From IMG/VR virus record IMGVR_UViG_2648501143_000006: 20,639 bases of DNA; one strand, written 5' to 3'. Of this stretch, positions 3,001-12,000 are shown one piece after another. Position 1 is the stretch's first letter; every line of letters starts with the position of its first letter. This DNA comes from a virus. Lineage: Duplodnaviria > Heunggongvirae > Uroviricota > Caudoviricetes. Made by a program: the position numbers.

Positions 3001-6000
3001 CGTAAATCGTTTGCGCACGTTACTATCATTACGATTGAGTATGATTACTGGATCTTGTTCTGGCTCTTTCAGCAATGCGCCTGAAACATCATCATCAAGC
3101 GTGGTTTCAACAACATCCAACCCTAACTCATTGGCAATCCATACTGGATCAACCGGGAATTTCCTATCGCCCCAGATATCTTTCAAGAGGGCATGTGCAG
3201 ATGTATTCGACATGTTCACCTCCTTTGATTATGGTTAAATAGTCGAAATTTTCACCACTTCCCTTGTGGATATATTTACATATAAAAGGTAACTAGTCAC
3301 TAACCAACACAAATCTTTTTGAAGACAGATGGGGGGTGTTGAACGGTTTTTAAATGATTTCTTTGATTTTTAACAGCAATAAGGAGCATTTTTAATGAAA
3401 TTAGACGTTGATAATAACTTTTTGAGCAATCTTTACATATCATGGTAGCCTTCTATGCTGTTTTTCCAACTAAAAGATTGGCACATTTATCCGCTGGTAG
3501 TGGCGTTTTTTCGCCGCCAGCGCCTCTCTGGTTCCATTCCTTACATCTGTTCAAATTCAGCAACCCTTGCCGCGATCTTGCCGTTATCGAGAAGCTCTTT
3601 CGCTTTTCGGTTAATACTATCGGTCTTCATATTGCCAGCAGCATACGCCATCCGATAATTTCGATGCTACGCGCGCGTACTTGTCGCAAAATATCAGGCA
3701 AAGGCCAGATTCAGAACGTCGTGATAACCACCAGCACAACATGAGATGTCATGTAACGCGATTTATCACACCAGATACATGTGATTGGTGTACCCGCATA
3801 AAACATCGTCATAGCGCGTCCTGTGCGCATATACGCCGATAATCAACACATCACCACCACTCTGTCTCATGTAGAGAACACTTTTATGGTATCCCCCGCC
3901 ATCGTGCGCGTACTAGTCGGACGCAGTTGCAAAACTTTTTGCAACTGATACCCCTCGCGCGCGTACTTGTCTCGAAATTGGTGTTTTGCTGTGGCAGTGA
4001 TATCAGAAAAATCTTCCTGTTTCACATAAAGCGGATATGCGCGTACTGTAACGACCCCATCAACGGGGGCGGATTTGAAATCCCGACCCAAGCTATGTAC
4101 CAAATGCCATGTCTTGGATATATGATGATTGCCATTCTAAACAACGCTAAAGGGAGGGTTGGTGTGAATCAATTGAAGCGATTGGTTGTCTCCGGTTTAT
4201 TATTTGCTTCTTTTGGAGCGAACGCTGAATGCTGGATTATTGGTGATCTGAAAGGACAAGAAGCCTCAAGTTCAGATGGGTATAACTATAAGTTATCATC
4301 TATACCAGATACCTTTCATTTGGTAATAAGTAAAGAGAAGGCGGATCTTATCTTGGCAAAAGATGGTATAGGTGGAGGTATTGATTATTACCCGCTATCT
4401 CCGAATGCCATGATGGGAAGAAGCTATCGAGATGGTCAACTGACGCTTGTCACATGGGCAATCTCAAATGACGGAAAAGTGATCCATACACGAACAATTA
4501 GTCGATCTGATATAGGCTCATTTACAGGCTCATTTGTCGGCAATGTTAAAGGCAAGTGTTAATGTTCATAACTATTTGAAAAAATACTAATTACTATTAT
4601 AACCAACCATCCATGGCCATCTGTTATTGAGCTTCCTTTTGCGATGCTTGTGCTGCTGTGGTCAGTGATTGTGTGACCGTACTGATCGCTCTGTCATATG
4701 CTGTGCTACCTTTTGGCGTATTTGCCAGACGTAACAAGGCATTTCGTATAACAGGGCTTTCGTATGCCTTCGCTGCTCCGCCTACGGCACCAGCAGCAGG
4801 AACAACAAACGCAGCCGTTTTTAGCATCCCCGCTAATACTGCTGCGTTTATGATGCCACCACCAACTAACAATCCATAAAGCTGCTGACCATTTAAGTTT
4901 TGAACGTTCGCTTTTGCCGCGTGTCTTGTATCGTTGAGGTATTTAATAACGCCGTCCAGTTCCTTTCCATGTATGCCTTTAAAGAAAGTTGCTGATTGCT
5001 TCCTGTTCCGGTGTAACGCATTAATAAACTTCTCAACACTGATATTTCCAGACGGATCAGTCGCCTTATCTACAGCATTCTGAACTATGGCTGCTCGTGC
5101 GTTTTGCCTACCATTGTCATCCAGAAGCCTGTAAAGCTGAGAACGTTCTGATGGGCTTTGGCTAAAAACAAGTTTTGTTACATCCTCAGGCGTGGCCTTG
5201 CCGCTGGCTATTGCCTTTTGAACGCGCGTTCTTCCCATCATGTCATTGAATTTAGACCATGAGCGATCAACCCTTGCCATATTAATAGCTTCGTCTGCTC
5301 CAAGATTTTTGGCTACGGCTTTTTTCATATCCGCCGTATATGCCTTGTAGATAATATCGCTGGCTTTCTGGAGCGTATCTTTATCAACAGTGTCAGATGA
5401 CGCCATAAATCGCTTTCGAAGATCGGTTCTGTTTTCCCTCGCCAGACGCAGGTCATTTGGTCCGCTGGTGATATCGTCTTTAAATTGCTGCAAGACTTTT
5501 ACCGCGGCTCTATCCTGAGATTTGCCCGGGCGGCTTAACACGGCAATCTGATTGTCGATAGCTTTTACCGTGTTTGAGAGATCGACAGGGGTATCCCCCA
5601 TAGCGTCAATTATGCGGTTATATCGCTTTCCTGCTGCCTCAATGAATTTTTGTTGCCCTTTAGTCGCAGATTCATAAAGCTGTTTATCAGAAATGCCACC
5701 CAGACCATCGCTAAATGTTCTGACTAAATTTTCTCGTGCTTGTTGTTGATTCAGCCGATTCTTACCGGTTCCAAAAAAAGGAACTCTTTCGCCTAATGTC
5801 TGAGCCTGACTCTGCATAAAGGTTTTATCTTTCAGCATGTCACTGGTCATTAACGGCAGATTTCTTTCCGATGCAAAGTCGACAGCAGCCTTTGCTTCAG
5901 GCGACATATCACCACGAACAGCCCTCGAAACCGCACTCGCTGTATTTTCCAGCCCCTTACCAATACCACCAATGCCAGCAGAAATTACCGTTTGTAACGG

Positions 6001-9000: not shown

Positions 9001-12000
9001 TGGTGAGTTTTCGAGAAGCCATTTGCAGAATAATCGATGTCCTTGCAGTGCATATTCACCACGGAATCCGGGGTCGTACACCGCATGGCATTCAACAACG
9101 CTATGCCAGAAGTTACGCACTTCATGAACGCCAGCCAGCACTAATCCTTCGTAGATGCCGAGATATACCGCATCAGGCTTGATGTAGTACGTGTGCCCCG
9201 GCTCAACAATATTTTCGGTATTGCCTGGCTCGTTAAGAAAGGCCTGTAATCGCACAGGGTTATCAATAAATTTTAGTTCCATGCGATGTCATCCATTTTC
9301 ACATACAGCCTGCCAGCGCCTTATCTATTAACCCTCGTGCAATTTCATGCAGAGTTGGCGCTACTCCAATTCCTGATTTTTTACGCTGCTCTTCCTGAAT
9401 TTTCTTTATCGCTTCCATTTGCTTCTCACTTATCAATACCGGCTTTACTGAAATAGCCATAACGCCCCCTTAGAACTGTATAAAACAACAGTTATTATAG
9501 TTTCACAAATCGCAATATTCATCATCGTAATTGCAAAATATGAAACAAATAGCACAAAAAAATGCCACCGCTCAGTAGCTGGTGGCATCGTTCTGTGTGT
9601 CAGGTTTTGACAGGTTTTTTATGGACTCTAAAAACTATATTTATGGTGTCGCATTACTCTTCACGGCAGGCGCTTTTCAGTTCTGCCCTTGCTTCTTGCT
9701 CCATTGGTAATTTGATTCGCGATCATCTATGCGGATGGTTTGCTGAACAGGCATAACAACATCTCAGAGGCTATTTTTTGAACTACGAAAATTTCGTAGT
9801 GCTCACCTTCAAAAACGTCACGCCCCTTGTACACTGGATTTTACAAAAGTCTCGTAAAACTCTTTGCTGTTCTGGGCTATGTGCCAAACCGCAGCGAATA
9901 CCTCCGTCTGCCAGATGAGCAAAACATACCTTATAAAGAAAATCGCTGTTTTTGCTGTACCACCTGTACCACCATGTCACAAACCCTTGTGTGGCGAGGC
10001 CTGCAGGTGGTACAGGTGGGTAAAAATGACCTCTCCCCACCTGTACAGACCTGTACCATTTATTTAATTTTTACCCATAGCAGCACATAATCCCTTTTTT
10101 GAAATATTGAAAAATGCGTTCATTCTTCCCGCTGGCTTAACCTTGTAGCCGCTTGCCACCATCGCCGCAATAAATGCTCCGTTGGGGATATAGTGCGGGT
10201 GATCACTGTGCTGGTGGTTTATCTGGTTATATCGCTCCACTTCATGCTTCAACATGTCAGATGTGGGGTTATCCTGCGGGAAGCTCTCAATCTGGGCATT
10301 ACTCATCCCGTTGTCTCTGATCCATCTCAGGCAGCTTTTCGCCGATACGATAAATGACGGGTTATCAAGCGGGTTTTCCCAGTCCGCATTCCGGTTGTGG
10401 AGCGCCAGTCCGTCAAGGTTAAATTGTGGGTATTCAGCGGTAATTACTGTCACTGCGTGGCGGATTTCAGTCTCGTCACAACATGGCTTATCTCCCACAC
10501 CAGCAGGGTAATAATCTGAACCACCGGGACTGATACAGCTTTTACCACTGAAAGGCCATTGCTTCGCCATTTCGGGTGTTGAGTGATTACCGTCGCTCCG
10601 TTCGCGCTGTGCCTCTGTCCACTGGCTGGCATATTCAGTAAATGAAACCCTTTGCCCCTGGCGCATCCAGTGCGCAATCATAATTAAAGTGCGTTCCAGA
10701 CTTTGGATGTCGCCAGCATTCCCGCACTGTGTAGCGAAACTTTTTAATTCTTCGCGCTCCGTTCTGGTCATTCCCTGCGGTATGCAATAGTTATTGTTCA
10801 TGTTTTACCTCTCTGATTTCTGCTGCCATATCTGTTGGCTCTATACAGCCGTCCCGACTTGCCACGCAGGGAATAATGATTTCAACGGTATCGCCGTCAA
10901 TACACATTTCAACATTCGCCCATGCCGCAATGGGTAGCCAGTCTGAACGCCCCTCAAACCGTAGCTGCCAGCCAGAGGAAGAAGCTAACTGGCGCACTTT
11001 GTAAAATGGTGTGCTCATCATTGGTTGTTTCCTCTCAGCCAGCCAGAAGAAATGCGTTTGTTAATGGTATAGGTGGTACAGGTCTGGTATAGGTAAGATA
11101 TTGACCTGTACCACTATAACGCACTGTTTTTAATACTGAATTAGCAAAGTGGTATAGGTGGTACAGGTAAAAACGATCTTCTTGTAAAAAGACTATATTA
11201 AAAAACATCATATCCCCCCATACCGATCAGACGGGCAAACGCAGCCTGTAGAACTCCGACCTCTGGTAGTTCGTAGAACACGCCATTCCCTCGGTCTGGT
11301 CTTCCATGCTTCACCAGCCCCATTTGTGCAAGTGATTTACCCAGTAGTGATCTGGCTGCTGGCTCTTTAAGCTTTTCCCCACGCTCAAGCGACCACGCTA
11401 CAAATCGACTAACCATATCCTTTGCAAACAAACGGACTTCGCCATTAAACGGAGGTTCATTGATTAGCTCGCCATAAAGAAACAATTCAACGCCAGACAG
11501 CCCCAGCAAGATTTCTTCACGTAAGGCATCGGTCTGTGGCGCTCGTTGAGGGTCAAAACCTGAGAGATCCACCCCTTTAAGATGCCAAAGCAACTTTGCG
11601 GCACCGCCATCATTAAGCCAACTGTACAGCCGATCAAAATACTCCCGGCTCTGTGCTTTTTCAGGAGATGGCTCAAGCACGAGATAGCGGCGCTCTCTTA
11701 TCCCTGCCTGTAATACCTGTGTGCTGTTACTGGCAAATATCAACCGGGCAAAATTCGGCATTGGTTCAGCATCAATTCCCTTGCGCTCAAGGTTAAACGT
11801 CGGTTCGCTAATAATCGCTTTAAGTCTGTCAGCTTCAGACGGCTTGTGGATCGTCACTTCGTCAGCAAATACCAGTAGCTTGTTAGCAAGTATTGAATTG
11901 AAGCGCCCTGAAATATGTCCCGCCCCGTTAATGTGGGCGGCGTACTGCCCCAGTATTTGCAGCAGCGGTTTAACCGTTGTGCCTTTCCCTGTGCCCGGGA

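What the first reader, a model, noticed from the sequence alone, without database searches (positions are those of the whole stretch)
4624..9282. Orphan operon of ejection-protein-like genes with no morphogenesis genes in the window
Three coupled genes match P22 gp7/gp20/gp16 in order, approximate size and Q/A/G-rich composition, with membrane-active-looking C-termini. The window contains no capsid, portal, terminase, tail or lysis gene. Upstream is a P4-like integrase/AlpA/primase module and downstream a moron region. This could be a deletion remnant of a P22-like prophage fused to a satellite-like island, or an element that keeps only ejection proteins to ride in a helper virion or to block superinfection.
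Basis: inference. Interest (0 to 1): 0.6.

Follow-up and report, generated by a model that had tools for sequence, protein, structure and literature searches.

The report
Phage satellite carrying its own ejection proteins
The "orphan" genes are real, intact copies of the P22 DNA-injection proteins. They sit in a ~20-kb E. coli phage satellite of the EcCIMP1 family (described in 2025) that borrows virions from P22-like phages, so this is a new member of a known kind whose injection-gene module still has no tested function.

Summary
Window 4624-9282 (minus strand) holds four coupled genes, not three: homologues of P22 gp14, gp7, gp20 and gp16. A conserved 53-aa leader ORF precedes them.

It is not a prophage remnant. 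The window is almost exactly one ~20-kb island, inserted into the 3' end of yicC next to dinD, with core genes on both sides. The island is 95-98% identical over its regulatory/replication half and over the start of the cassette to EcCIMP1. EcCIMP1 is a PICI-type satellite shown experimentally (Pick et al. 2025) to be induced and transduced by the P22-like phage Kapi1.

The island marker occurs in about 9% of complete E. coli genomes and in Leclercia, Serratia and Citrobacter-like genomes. All cassette ORFs examined are intact, with dN/dS of 0.06-0.30.

Findings here that go beyond that paper:
- A mimic of the P22-type pac site lies at 16286-16313.
- A conserved LexA (SOS) box overlaps the cassette promoter at 9476-9491.
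- A common island variant keeps only gp20+gp16.

Most likely the satellite loads its own DNA-delivery conduit into helper-built virions. The purpose, perhaps evasion of SieA-type exclusion, is inferred.

The parts
822..842 (.). dinD-proximal copy of the ~21-bp attachment core (island end). The second copy overlaps the yicC stop codon just beyond the window end.
   Evidence: The empty K-12 yicC/dinD site aligns to both island flanks with a 21-bp overlap.
4624..6729 (-). gp16-type ejection protein (701 aa). In P22 this is the inner-membrane part of the conduit.
   Evidence: phrog_770 at 4.5e-161. 30% identity to P22 gp16 at 4e-52. 67% to E. coli phage N7. 90% aa identity to gp16 of a real CUS-3-like prophage, dN/dS 0.09-0.23.
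6729..8150 (-). gp20-type ejection protein (473 aa). The N-terminal ~220 aa are conserved; the C-terminal half is allele-specific.
   Evidence: PF16928 at 5.3e-57 over residues 34-213. 37% identity to P22 gp20 over residues 1-223. dN/dS 0.24-0.30.
8150..8827 (-). gp7-type ejection protein (225 aa).
   Evidence: PF25688 at 6.6e-73. 56% identity to P22 gp7 and 58% to Kapi1_056. dN/dS 0.06-0.12.
8821..9282 (-). gp14 homologue (DUF2824, 153 aa).
   Evidence: PF11039 at 1.5e-61 and phrog_651. 84% identity to Kapi1_055.
9299..9460 (-). 53-aa leader ORF, the first gene of the cassette operon in every island of the family. Possibly a small DNA-binding protein (unproven).
   Evidence: Homologues occur in Escherichia, Citrobacter, Serratia, Klebsiella and Salmonella, always at the head of the cargo slot. 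The AF2 model shows an extended N-terminus plus two helices, with no PDB fold match.
9474..9499 (-). Cassette promoter core: invariant TATAAT (9499-9494), immediately followed by a LexA-box-like CTGT-N8-ACAG (9491-9476).
   Evidence: Six-island, five-genus alignment. The only other such box in the window is the dinD SOS box. Approximate heterology index is 4.9 against 3.7 for dinD.
9510..9536 (-). Conserved inverted repeat TTGCAAT-N13-ATTGCGA upstream of the -10 element. Candidate regulator site.
   Evidence: Read from the sequence and from the conservation in alignment A2. Its function is inferred.
9554..9579 (-). Terminator-like hairpin plus T-run that separates the replication module from the cassette promoter.
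11198..13552 (-). Primase/replication protein (zinc ribbon, Toprim, DUF5906).
15971..16159 (-). C4 antisense RNA (15971-16058) and isrK RNA (16083-16159): an RNA-based immunity/antirepressor control module.
   Evidence: Rfam matches at 79 and 65 bits, both above the gathering scores.
16286..16392 (+). Fragment derived from P22-type terS. Its first 28 bp (16286-16313, GAAGGTTTTTGTGGAGTCACTACGCGAG) mimic the pac site.
   Evidence: 87% identity to P22 nt 4-110, which include the annotated pac site at nt 4-25. 92% identity to terS of other P22-like phages that carry the identical core. In other islands the core alone recurs, tandemly and elsewhere.
16709..17542 (-). AntA/AntB-type antirepressor.
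   Evidence: PF08346 at 1.2e-21.
17986..18189 (-). AlpA-family regulator.
   Evidence: PF05930 at 2.2e-08. This region is 95% identical to EcCIMP1, where alpA is required for excision (PMC11773190).
19380..20639 (-). Tyrosine integrase (Arm-binding, central and catalytic domains). The int-alpA RNA lies at 19305-19371.
1352..4562 (.). Variable accessory end: PerC regulator (1352-1639), 147-aa ORF, 125-aa membrane protein plus M78 peptidase (2350-3219), and a secreted moron-like protein (3927-4562, + strand).
   Evidence: Other islands carry different genes here.

Best explanation
The interval is the virion (DNA-ejection) module of a ~20-kb phage satellite of the EcCIMP1 family, integrated in the 3' end of yicC.

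The satellite has an integrase, an AlpA switch, a C4/isrK RNA plus antirepressor module, and a primase. It has no capsid, tail, terminase or lysis genes. It depends on a P22-like (Lederbergvirus) helper.

Proposed cycle:
1. Helper induction switches on AlpA, and the island excises and replicates. This is shown for EcCIMP1 and inferred here.
2. The helper's P22-type small terminase recognises the pac-site mimic at 16286-16313. Island concatemers are then packaged by the headful, about two island copies per ~43-kb head. This is inferred.
3. The operon leader-gp14-gp7-gp20-gp16 is transcribed from its own promoter. A LexA box lies on top of that promoter, so it fires in SOS-induced cells, when lambdoid helpers are building procapsids. 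This is inferred from sequence.
4. The satellite's E-proteins enter helper procapsids through their conserved N-terminal regions. On the next infection they build the trans-envelope conduit: gp7 at the outer membrane, gp20 across the periplasm, gp16 at the inner membrane. This is inferred from P22 biology.

The constant core of the module is gp20+gp16. These are the two proteins that P22's SieA exclusion system targets, and the island alleles are very unlike the helper's. The likeliest benefit is therefore that satellite-carrying particles deliver DNA through a conduit the helper does not have, for example into cells that exclude the helper's own conduit. That last step is a hypothesis.
For: Homology, order and integrity of the four genes.

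Complete island bounded by core genes and an att duplication.

Same family as EcCIMP1: 94.8% identity over window 12528-17996 and 98.1% over 7990-9863, with the same gene order. EcCIMP1 is excised only with Kapi1 and is transduced by it (PMC11773190).

Spread and selection:
- The island marker is in 521 of 5426 E. coli genomes.
- Island-type gp14+gp7 is in 253 genomes.
- Related islands occur in Leclercia, Serratia and Citrobacter-like genomes.
- dN/dS is 0.06-0.30 and no ORF is disrupted.

Variant islands carry the leader followed directly by gp20+gp16, without gp14 or gp7.

Alleles move between islands and real phages: window gp16 is 90% aa identical to that of a CUS-3-like prophage.

Island alleles differ from the known helper's: EcCIMP1 against Kapi1 gives gp20 26% and gp16 24% identity.

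pac mimic.

LexA box conserved next to an invariant -10 element in E. coli, Leclercia, Serratia and Citrobacter-like islands.

P22 background:
- E-proteins enter procapsids independently of each other, gp20 through its N-terminal 314 aa (PMC8402733).
- SieA escape mutations map to the C-terminal regions of gp16 and gp20, and foreign E-protein sets work in P22 (PMC10461980).
Against: No experiment shows that island-encoded E-proteins are in virions or are needed for transfer.

E-proteins are loaded before DNA is packaged, so they cannot favour satellite DNA over helper DNA inside one cell.

Pick et al. found only very low transduction of EcCIMP1 by Kapi1 and suggested a packaging role for these genes.

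Kapi1's small terminase is unrelated to P22 gp3, and Kapi1 lacks the pac core. The pac mimic therefore cannot explain the one helper pair that has been tested.

The LexA box is a sequence prediction. Its score uses a matrix built from LexA sites recalled from memory. The K. michiganensis relative has the two half-sites one base closer together.

The promoter has no recognisable -35 element, and the automatic promoter scan did not flag it.
Confidence: 0.6

Rival explanations
1. Superinfection exclusion. The resident island makes E-proteins, or a subset of them, inside the cell. These interfere with the conduit that an incoming P22-like phage tries to assemble, and so protect the host.
For: EcCIMP1 adds to superinfection immunity against Kapi1, and no known defence system was found in it (PMC11773190). 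PADLOC gives no hit for the cassette proteins, so no other named defence explains that phenotype. gp20 and gp16 are the targets of the natural exclusion protein SieA.
Against: The cassette promoter carries a LexA box, so it should be off in undamaged cells, where exclusion is needed. The proteins are full-length alleles of the phage type, shared at 90% identity with a real prophage, and have no export signals. Type A islands also keep gp14 and gp7, which a decoy would not need. The secreted moron-like gene at 3927-4562, in the position sieA occupies in P22, is a better candidate for exclusion.
Confidence: 0.15
2. Insurance or complementation. The cassette supplies E-proteins to defective or incompatible helper prophages, so that some infectious transducing particles can still be made.
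For: The EcCIMP1 alpA_1 gene can stand in for the Kapi1 excisionase, which its authors read as an 'insurance policy'. Matches to the cassette DNA occur in 1463 of 5426 E. coli genomes, far more than the 521 that carry the island marker. The O157:H7 matches cover only gp14-to-gp20 pieces of the query.
Against: It does not explain why gp20+gp16 in particular are the constant core, nor why island alleles are so divergent from those of a functional helper. E-protein genes are not reported to be lost preferentially from prophages.
Confidence: 0.1
3. Packaging or capsid-assembly role, or helper interference. The gp14-to-gp16 proteins redirect assembly or poison helper particles, as the morphogenesis modules of other PICIs do. 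This is the suggestion of Pick et al.
For: The cassette sits where PICIs keep their packaging and interference genes, downstream of the primase. PHROG labels gp14 and part of gp16 'head morphogenesis'. SaPI operon I, also LexA-controlled, encodes packaging and capsid-size genes (PMC3152322).
Against: In P22 the three E-proteins are dispensable for assembly and DNA packaging and act only in DNA delivery. A separate pac mimic already accounts for packaging specificity. EcCIMP1 does not reduce Kapi1 production.
Confidence: 0.1
4. Non-functional deletion remnant of a P22-like prophage that happens to lie next to an integrase/primase island.
For: The genes are clearly of P22-like phage origin, as is the terS fragment.
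Against: All ORFs are intact with dN/dS of 0.06-0.30. The same leader, promoter and cassette occur in hundreds of genomes, in at least three E. coli integration sites, with two primase types and in several genera. Core genes flank the island on both sides.
Confidence: 0.05

Closest known systems
EcCIMP1, the PICI of E. coli MP1 with helper phage vB_EcoP_Kapi1 (Pick, Stadel & Raivio, ISME J 2025, PMC11773190)
   Same: Gene order is the same: int-AlpA-143aa-AntA/B-DUF4222-Ash/Icd-small ORFs-primase-leader-DUF2824-gp7-gp20-gp16-accessory genes-PerC. DNA identity is 95-98% over the regulatory half and the start of the cassette. Size is ~20 kb. The same pac mimic and cassette promoter are present.
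   Different: This island has a different integrase and attachment site (yicC 3' end rather than tRNA-Thr), a DUF5906 rather than DUF927 primase C-terminus, and unrelated gp20 C-terminal and gp16 alleles (701 aa here; 906 aa with a transglycosylase domain in EcCIMP1). Its accessory genes also differ. Nothing has been tested experimentally for this island.
Phage P22 / Sf6 ejection-protein operon (genes 14, 7, 20, 16)
   Same: Homologous proteins, the same order and coupling, similar sizes, and glycine- and hydrophobic-rich C-termini.
   Different: In phages these genes lie inside the late operon, between the tail-needle gene and sieA, and are read by antiterminated late transcription. Here they follow a terminator, their own promoter with a LexA box, and a leader ORF, in an element with no other virion gene. 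A common island variant lacks genes 14 and 7.
SaPI operon I of Staphylococcus aureus pathogenicity islands
   Same: Both are satellite-encoded modules that act on helper virion production and sit under LexA/SOS control rather than under the island's master switch (PMC3152322, citing Ubeda et al. 2007). Here a LexA box is predicted.
   Different: SaPI operon I encodes a small terminase and capsid-size remodelling proteins, not ejection proteins. There is no sequence relationship. LexA control here is only predicted.
Satellites that copy the helper's packaging site, such as P4 with the P2 cos site and cos-type SaPIs (own knowledge; the SaPI literature turned up)
   Same: The island has no terminase gene of its own. 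It carries a short DNA site matching the one the helper terminase recognises.
   Different: Here the site is a pac site for a headful-packaging podovirus. It was evidently acquired as a piece of the helper terS gene. Its function is untested.
P4-like satellites of P2
   Same: Integrase with Arm domain, AlpA regulator, large primase, antisense-RNA (C4/CI-type) immunity, and Ash/Icd-like region.
   Different: No Psu, Sid or Delta/Ogr homologue was detected. The helper type is a P22-like podovirus, not a P2-like myovirus.

Membership tests
P22-type ejection-protein set (gp14/gp7/gp20/gp16) | Sequence membership of each protein in the corresponding family | tested here: met
   PF11039 at 1.5e-61, PF25688 at 6.6e-73 and PF16928 at 5.3e-57. 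For gp16: phrog_770 at 4.5e-161 and BLASTP to P22 gp16 at 4e-52. Pfam itself gave no hit for the gp16 homologue.
P22-type ejection-protein set (gp14/gp7/gp20/gp16) | Gene order 14-7-20-16 with overlapping or abutting reading frames | tested here: met
   ORF coordinates 9282-8821, 8827-8150, 8150-6729 and 6729-4624, compared with the P22 map.
P22-type ejection-protein set (gp14/gp7/gp20/gp16) | Proteins are packaged in virions and released into the cell at infection | not testable with these tools
   Needs virion proteomics. Known for P22.
PICI / EcCIMP1-like phage satellite | Site-specific integrase at one end, with a duplicated att core flanking a 10-20-kb island | tested here: met
   Integrase at 19380-20639. 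21-bp duplicated core at the yicC 3' end and at window 822-842. Island ~20 kb.
PICI / EcCIMP1-like phage satellite | AlpA-family regulator downstream of int, and a primase/replication module | tested here: met
   PF05930 at 17986-18189. Zn-ribbon/Toprim/DUF5906 protein at 11198-13552.
PICI / EcCIMP1-like phage satellite | No capsid, tail, terminase or lysis genes | tested here: met
   Pfam and PHROG scans. RefSeq annotation of a 99%-identical copy and its flanks.
PICI / EcCIMP1-like phage satellite | Nucleotide relatedness to the type element EcCIMP1 | tested here: met
   94.8% identity over 5.5 kb and 98.1% over 1.9 kb.
PICI / EcCIMP1-like phage satellite | Helper-dependent excision, replication and high-frequency transfer | not testable with these tools
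   Excision and low-frequency transduction are shown for EcCIMP1 with Kapi1. Not known for this island.
P4-like satellite | Psu, Sid and Delta (capsid-size and late-gene control proteins) | tested here: not met
   No such Pfam or PHROG hit in any ORF scanned.
P4-like satellite | P2-type cos site | not tested
   Not searched. A P22-type pac mimic was found instead.
P22-like prophage (intact or remnant in normal order) | Tail-needle, gp10, gp4, coat and portal genes upstream of gene 14; sieA/immI/tailspike downstream of gene 16 | tested here: not met
   A primase module lies upstream. PerC, accessory genes and then dinD lie downstream. Real prophages show the expected order.
P22-type pac site | Match to the 22-bp site recognised by the small terminase gp3 | tested here: inconclusive
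   16 of 22 positions match the annotated P22 site. The 28-bp core is identical to the one inside terS of other P22-like phages whose TerS is 86-90% identical to gp3. Recognition and cutting are untested.
LexA (SOS) regulon promoter | CTGT-N8-ACAG box overlapping the promoter, conserved in orthologous promoters | tested here: met
   Box at 9476-9491, directly after the invariant TATAAT. Conserved in 5 of 6 aligned islands. Approximate HI is 4.9. LexA binding itself is untested.

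The most novel reading that the evidence does not exclude
EcCIMP1-family islands would be the first phage satellites known to remodel the genome-delivery apparatus of the helper virion, rather than its capsid size or packaging specificity.

On this reading, the island loads SOS-induced, satellite-encoded gp20/gp16 (with or without gp14/gp7) into P22-like procapsids. This swaps the trans-envelope conduit for alleles that the recipient's SieA-type exclusion does not recognise. Satellite DNA can then enter the very cells, lysogens of P22-like phages, where a helper is waiting.
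Probability: 0.3. Interest if true: 0.75.

Novelty: new member of a known kind. Interest (0 to 1): 0.5.

Why it matters
Known satellites steal capsids, resize them, redirect terminases or borrow only tails. I found no description of one that brings its own ejection proteins.

The family is common, at about 9% of complete E. coli genomes, and carries virulence regulators (PerC) and variable defence genes. How it moves between strains therefore matters for gene flow in Enterobacteriaceae.

The pac mimic predicts which phages should be efficient helpers: those with a P22-type small terminase. It may also explain why the only tested helper, Kapi1, moves EcCIMP1 so poorly.

The gp20+gp16 core and the LexA box turn the open question left by the 2025 paper into specific experiments.

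Tried and rejected
- Sequence search of the four cassette proteins against the PDB gave no hits.
- AF2 model of the leader ORF with a Foldseek PDB search gave no significant match, so 'ribbon-helix-helix repressor' stays a guess. Pfam, PHROG and PADLOC gave nothing for it.
- Looked for similarity between the cassette's upstream region and the late-promoter/qut regions of Kapi1 and P22. Only chance-level short matches turned up, so there is no sign that helper Q-type antitermination is tapped.
- The automatic sigma-70 scan did not flag the cassette promoter, which has no usable -35 element.
- PADLOC gave no defence-family hit for gp16, gp20, the 211-aa ORF or the 245-aa ORF.
- A genome-contig scan with gp7 returned mostly ordinary P22-like prophages and only one further island, in Leclercia. 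The leader ORF proved the better island marker.
- The MP1 transcriptome paper (PMC12922286) gave no usable statement on cassette expression.
- Considered and dropped: a structural module lying just outside the window, and P4-family membership (no Psu, Sid or Delta).

Full report
**What is in the interval**

Window 4624-9282 holds four abutting minus-strand ORFs.
- 8821-9282 (153 aa) belongs to DUF2824, the P22 gp14 family (PF11039, 1.5e-61).
- 8150-8827 (225 aa) is a P22 gp7 homologue (PF25688, 6.6e-73).
- 6729-8150 (473 aa) is a gp20 homologue (PF16928, 5.3e-57, residues 34-213).
- 4624-6729 (701 aa) is a gp16-type 'DNA transfer protein' (phrog_770, 4.5e-161).

BLASTP against the P22 proteins read from NC_002371 gives these identities:

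| Protein | Identity to P22 | E-value / range |
|---|---|---|
| gp7 | 56% | 1.4e-52 |
| gp20 | 37% | residues 1-223 |
| gp16 | 30% | residues 210-683, 4e-52 |
| gp14 | 23% | |

gp14 is also 84% identical to its homologue in the E. coli Lederbergvirus Kapi1. Order and sizes match P22. The only correction is that there are four genes, plus a 53-aa leader ORF at 9299-9460.

**The surroundings**

A 99%-identical copy in E. coli ETEC1721 shows core genes on both sides. dinD, yicG and ligB lie on one side; yicC, rph and pyrE lie on the other.

Aligning the empty K-12 yicC/dinD site to both flanks shows a 21-bp duplication that overlaps the yicC stop codon. The dinD-proximal copy is at window 822-842. 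The window is therefore almost exactly one ~20-kb island, and no structural module lies outside it.

Read along the minus strand, the island contains:
- an integrase and an int-alpA RNA;
- an AlpA regulator;
- an AntA/B antirepressor and a DUF4222 protein;
- isrK and C4 antisense RNAs;
- several small ORFs;
- a Zn-ribbon/Toprim/DUF5906 primase;
- the cassette;
- a variable accessory end with a secreted moron-like protein, an M78 peptidase, a small membrane protein and PerC.

No capsid, portal, terminase, tail or lysis gene was found.

**It is a known kind of element**

A literature search led to Pick, Stadel & Raivio 2025 (PMC11773190). EcCIMP1 is a 19,963-bp PICI of E. coli MP1 at tRNA-Thr. 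Their findings:
- It circularises only when the P22-like phage Kapi1 is present, needs its alpA and int genes, and is transduced by Kapi1 at low frequency.
[quoted passage not shown] The authors guessed a packaging role.

The RefSeq annotation of MP1 shows the same gene order as the window. The window is 94.8% identical to EcCIMP1 over 12528-17996 and 98.1% over 7990-9863. The integrase and att site, the primase C-terminus, the C-terminal half of gp20, gp16 and the accessory end differ. The window therefore holds a modular relative of EcCIMP1.

**Not a remnant**
- The island-specific DNA just upstream of gp14 (9283-9863) occurs in 521 of 5426 complete E. coli genomes, 455 of them at 80% coverage or more.
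- Island-type gp14+gp7 occurs at 80% coverage or more in 253 genomes.
- In seven islands every cassette ORF is intact. Pairwise dN/dS is 0.06-0.30.
- Islands use at least three E. coli integration sites and two primase types.
- Related islands occur in Leclercia and, found through the leader ORF, in Serratia and Citrobacter-like genomes.

**A variant that points to the core**

Islands in strains C8, AMSCJX02, ETEC6 and CE0032f, and in Serratia, have the leader ORF followed directly by gp20 and gp16. They have no gp14 and no gp7.

From the counts above, roughly 200 of the ~455 E. coli islands are of this type. This is an estimate.

Window gp16 is 100% identical to the gp16 of one such island. 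It is 90% aa identical to the gp16 of a genuine CUS-3-like prophage in NCTC11151, so alleles move between islands and phages.

In the one experimentally paired case, the island alleles are very unlike the helper's. EcCIMP1 against Kapi1 gives gp20 26%, gp16 24%, gp7 57% and gp14 83% identity.

In K. michiganensis the same leader precedes a different cargo: a 605-aa protein with similarity to injection transglycosylases, and a protein like the N-terminus of a small terminase.

**A pac-site mimic**

A sensitive comparison of the island with P22 gave an unexpected hit. Window 16286-16392 (+ strand) is 87% identical to P22 nt 4-110, inside gene 3 (small terminase). That stretch starts with the annotated 22-bp pac site.

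The island core is GAAGGTTTTTGTGGAGTCACTACGCGAG, matching the P22 site at 16 of 22 positions. Further evidence:
- The core is present in every E. coli island fetched, including EcCIMP1.
- In the Leclercia island, and in several IMG/VR islands, only the ~28-bp core is present. It occurs in tandem degenerate copies, in non-coding DNA downstream of gp16, without the terS flank.
- The identical core also lies inside terS genes (86-90% aa identity to P22 gp3) of real P22-like phages with the terS-terL-portal order. The island fragment is 92% identical to these.

A core retained in two unrelated island contexts argues that the core itself is selected. The simplest reading is that it is a packaging signal for helpers with a P22-type small terminase.

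Kapi1's TerS is unrelated to gp3, and Kapi1 has no such core. This may explain the very low EcCIMP1 transduction by Kapi1; that link is an inference. The EcCIMP1 paper mentions neither pac, headful nor LexA.

In E. coli genomes the 141-bp region has 792 places in 687 genomes. Of these genomes, 485 carry a full-length copy (island context); most of the remaining places lie in terS genes.

**Regulation of the cassette**

Between the primase module and the leader ORF lie, in order:
- a terminator-like hairpin at 9579-9564;
- a conserved inverted repeat, TTGCAAT-N13-ATTGCGA, at 9536-9510;
- an invariant TATAAT at 9499-9494 with no usable -35 element;
- directly after it, CTGT-N8-ACAG at 9491-9476.

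The only other such motif in the window is the SOS box of the neighbouring dinD gene. With a matrix built from about 20 E. coli LexA sites that I recalled from memory, the cassette box scores a heterology index of 4.9, against 3.7 for dinD.

The box and the -10 element are conserved in E. coli (both cassette types), Leclercia, Serratia and Citrobacter-like islands. The K. michiganensis relative has the two half-sites one base closer together.

I therefore predict that the cassette is LexA-repressed and SOS-induced, independently of AlpA. The closest precedent is SaPI operon I, a LexA-regulated satellite operon for helper exploitation (PMC3152322).

**How it most likely works**

Shown by others for P22:
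- gp7, gp20 and gp16 are loaded into procapsids independently of each other and of the portal. gp20 enters through its N-terminal 314 aa (PMC8402733).
- They are ejected and form the trans-envelope channel.
- Very different E-protein sets can replace P22's own.

Put together with the island data, the best model is as follows. In an SOS-induced cell with an induced P22-like helper, the island excises and replicates. It is packaged from its pac mimic by the headful. Its own E-proteins are built into the helper's procapsids, so the released particles carry the satellite's conduit.

Three features fit a benefit at the DNA-entry step, for instance entry into lysogens that exclude the helper's conduit:
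- gp20+gp16 are the constant core.
- Their N-terminal (gp20) assembly region is conserved while the rest is allele-specific.
- The alleles differ from the helper's.

That last step is a hypothesis. So is incorporation into virions.

**Rivals**
- An exclusion (decoy) role would fit the superinfection-immunity phenotype of EcCIMP1. It fits poorly with a LexA-repressed promoter and with full-length, phage-exchangeable alleles.
- A complementation ('insurance') role and a packaging or interference role are possible but explain less.
- The remnant hypothesis is contradicted by conservation and selection.

**Verdict**

The element belongs to a family published in 2025, so it is a new member of a known kind.

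What remains open, and is now testable, is why a satellite carries ejection proteins. The pac mimic, the SOS box and the gp20+gp16 core are concrete leads.

Noticed in passing
window 16286-16392 (+): A 107-bp fragment of a P22-type small-terminase gene whose first 28 bp mimic the pac site. It is conserved in all E. coli islands of the family. In Leclercia and other islands it is reduced to tandem core copies at another position.
   Followed up: yes
window 9474-9536 (-): The cassette promoter has an invariant TATAAT, a LexA-box-like CTGT-N8-ACAG directly after it, and an upstream inverted repeat TTGCAAT-N13-ATTGCGA. All are conserved across genera.
   Followed up: yes
L020, L021, L022, L023, L038 (loci): A frequent island variant has the leader ORF followed only by gp20 and gp16 homologues, with no gp14 or gp7.
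   Followed up: partly
L040/L041 (Klebsiella michiganensis), 10001-12649: The same leader ORF precedes a different cargo: a 605-aa phrog_7694 protein whose C-terminus resembles injection transglycosylases and tape-measure proteins, and a 168-aa protein like the N-terminus of a small terminase. This suggests a general 'helper-exploitation slot'.
   Followed up: partly
window 15971-16159 (-) and 19305-19371 (-): Rfam finds C4 antisense RNA, isrK RNA and int-alpA RNA. The 342-aa ORF annotated 'Ash family protein' (15512-16540) runs across these RNA genes and across the pac mimic, so much of that ORF is probably not coding.
   Followed up: partly
window 1-615 (-): The dinD allele here lacks 222 bp in frame (74 codons) and has a divergent N-terminal part compared with K-12 and ETEC1721. 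Its SOS box (647-666) is intact.
   Followed up: partly
window 3927-4562 (+): An ORF with a signal peptide and a 116-aa phrog_2651 domain. It is about 30% identical to moron genes next to cI in phages 434, Sf6 and HK446. In Salmonella phages Emek and ST-35 the match lies at about 12-14 kb in the record, roughly where gene 16/sieA sits in P22-like genomes (adjacency not checked). It is a candidate exclusion or lysogenic-conversion gene.
   Followed up: partly
window 2350-3219 (-): An M78/ImmA-type peptidase (PADLOC capP-like, 4.9e-25) is paired with a 125-aa membrane protein. The same slot holds an Abi_2 protein in ETEC1721 and an RnlA/RnlB pair in a Serratia island, so this is a variable defence or accessory slot.
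   Followed up: no
window 1676-1767 vs L002 18413-18504: A ~90-bp sequence upstream of perC in the window recurs, inverted, between the primase and the leader ORF in EcCIMP1 (82% identity). Its meaning is unknown.
   Followed up: no
window 7181-7200 (+), inside gp20: A second, weaker LexA-box-like 20-mer, CCCTGTATGCAAATCCAGCA (approximate HI 7.3). It is probably a chance match.
   Followed up: no
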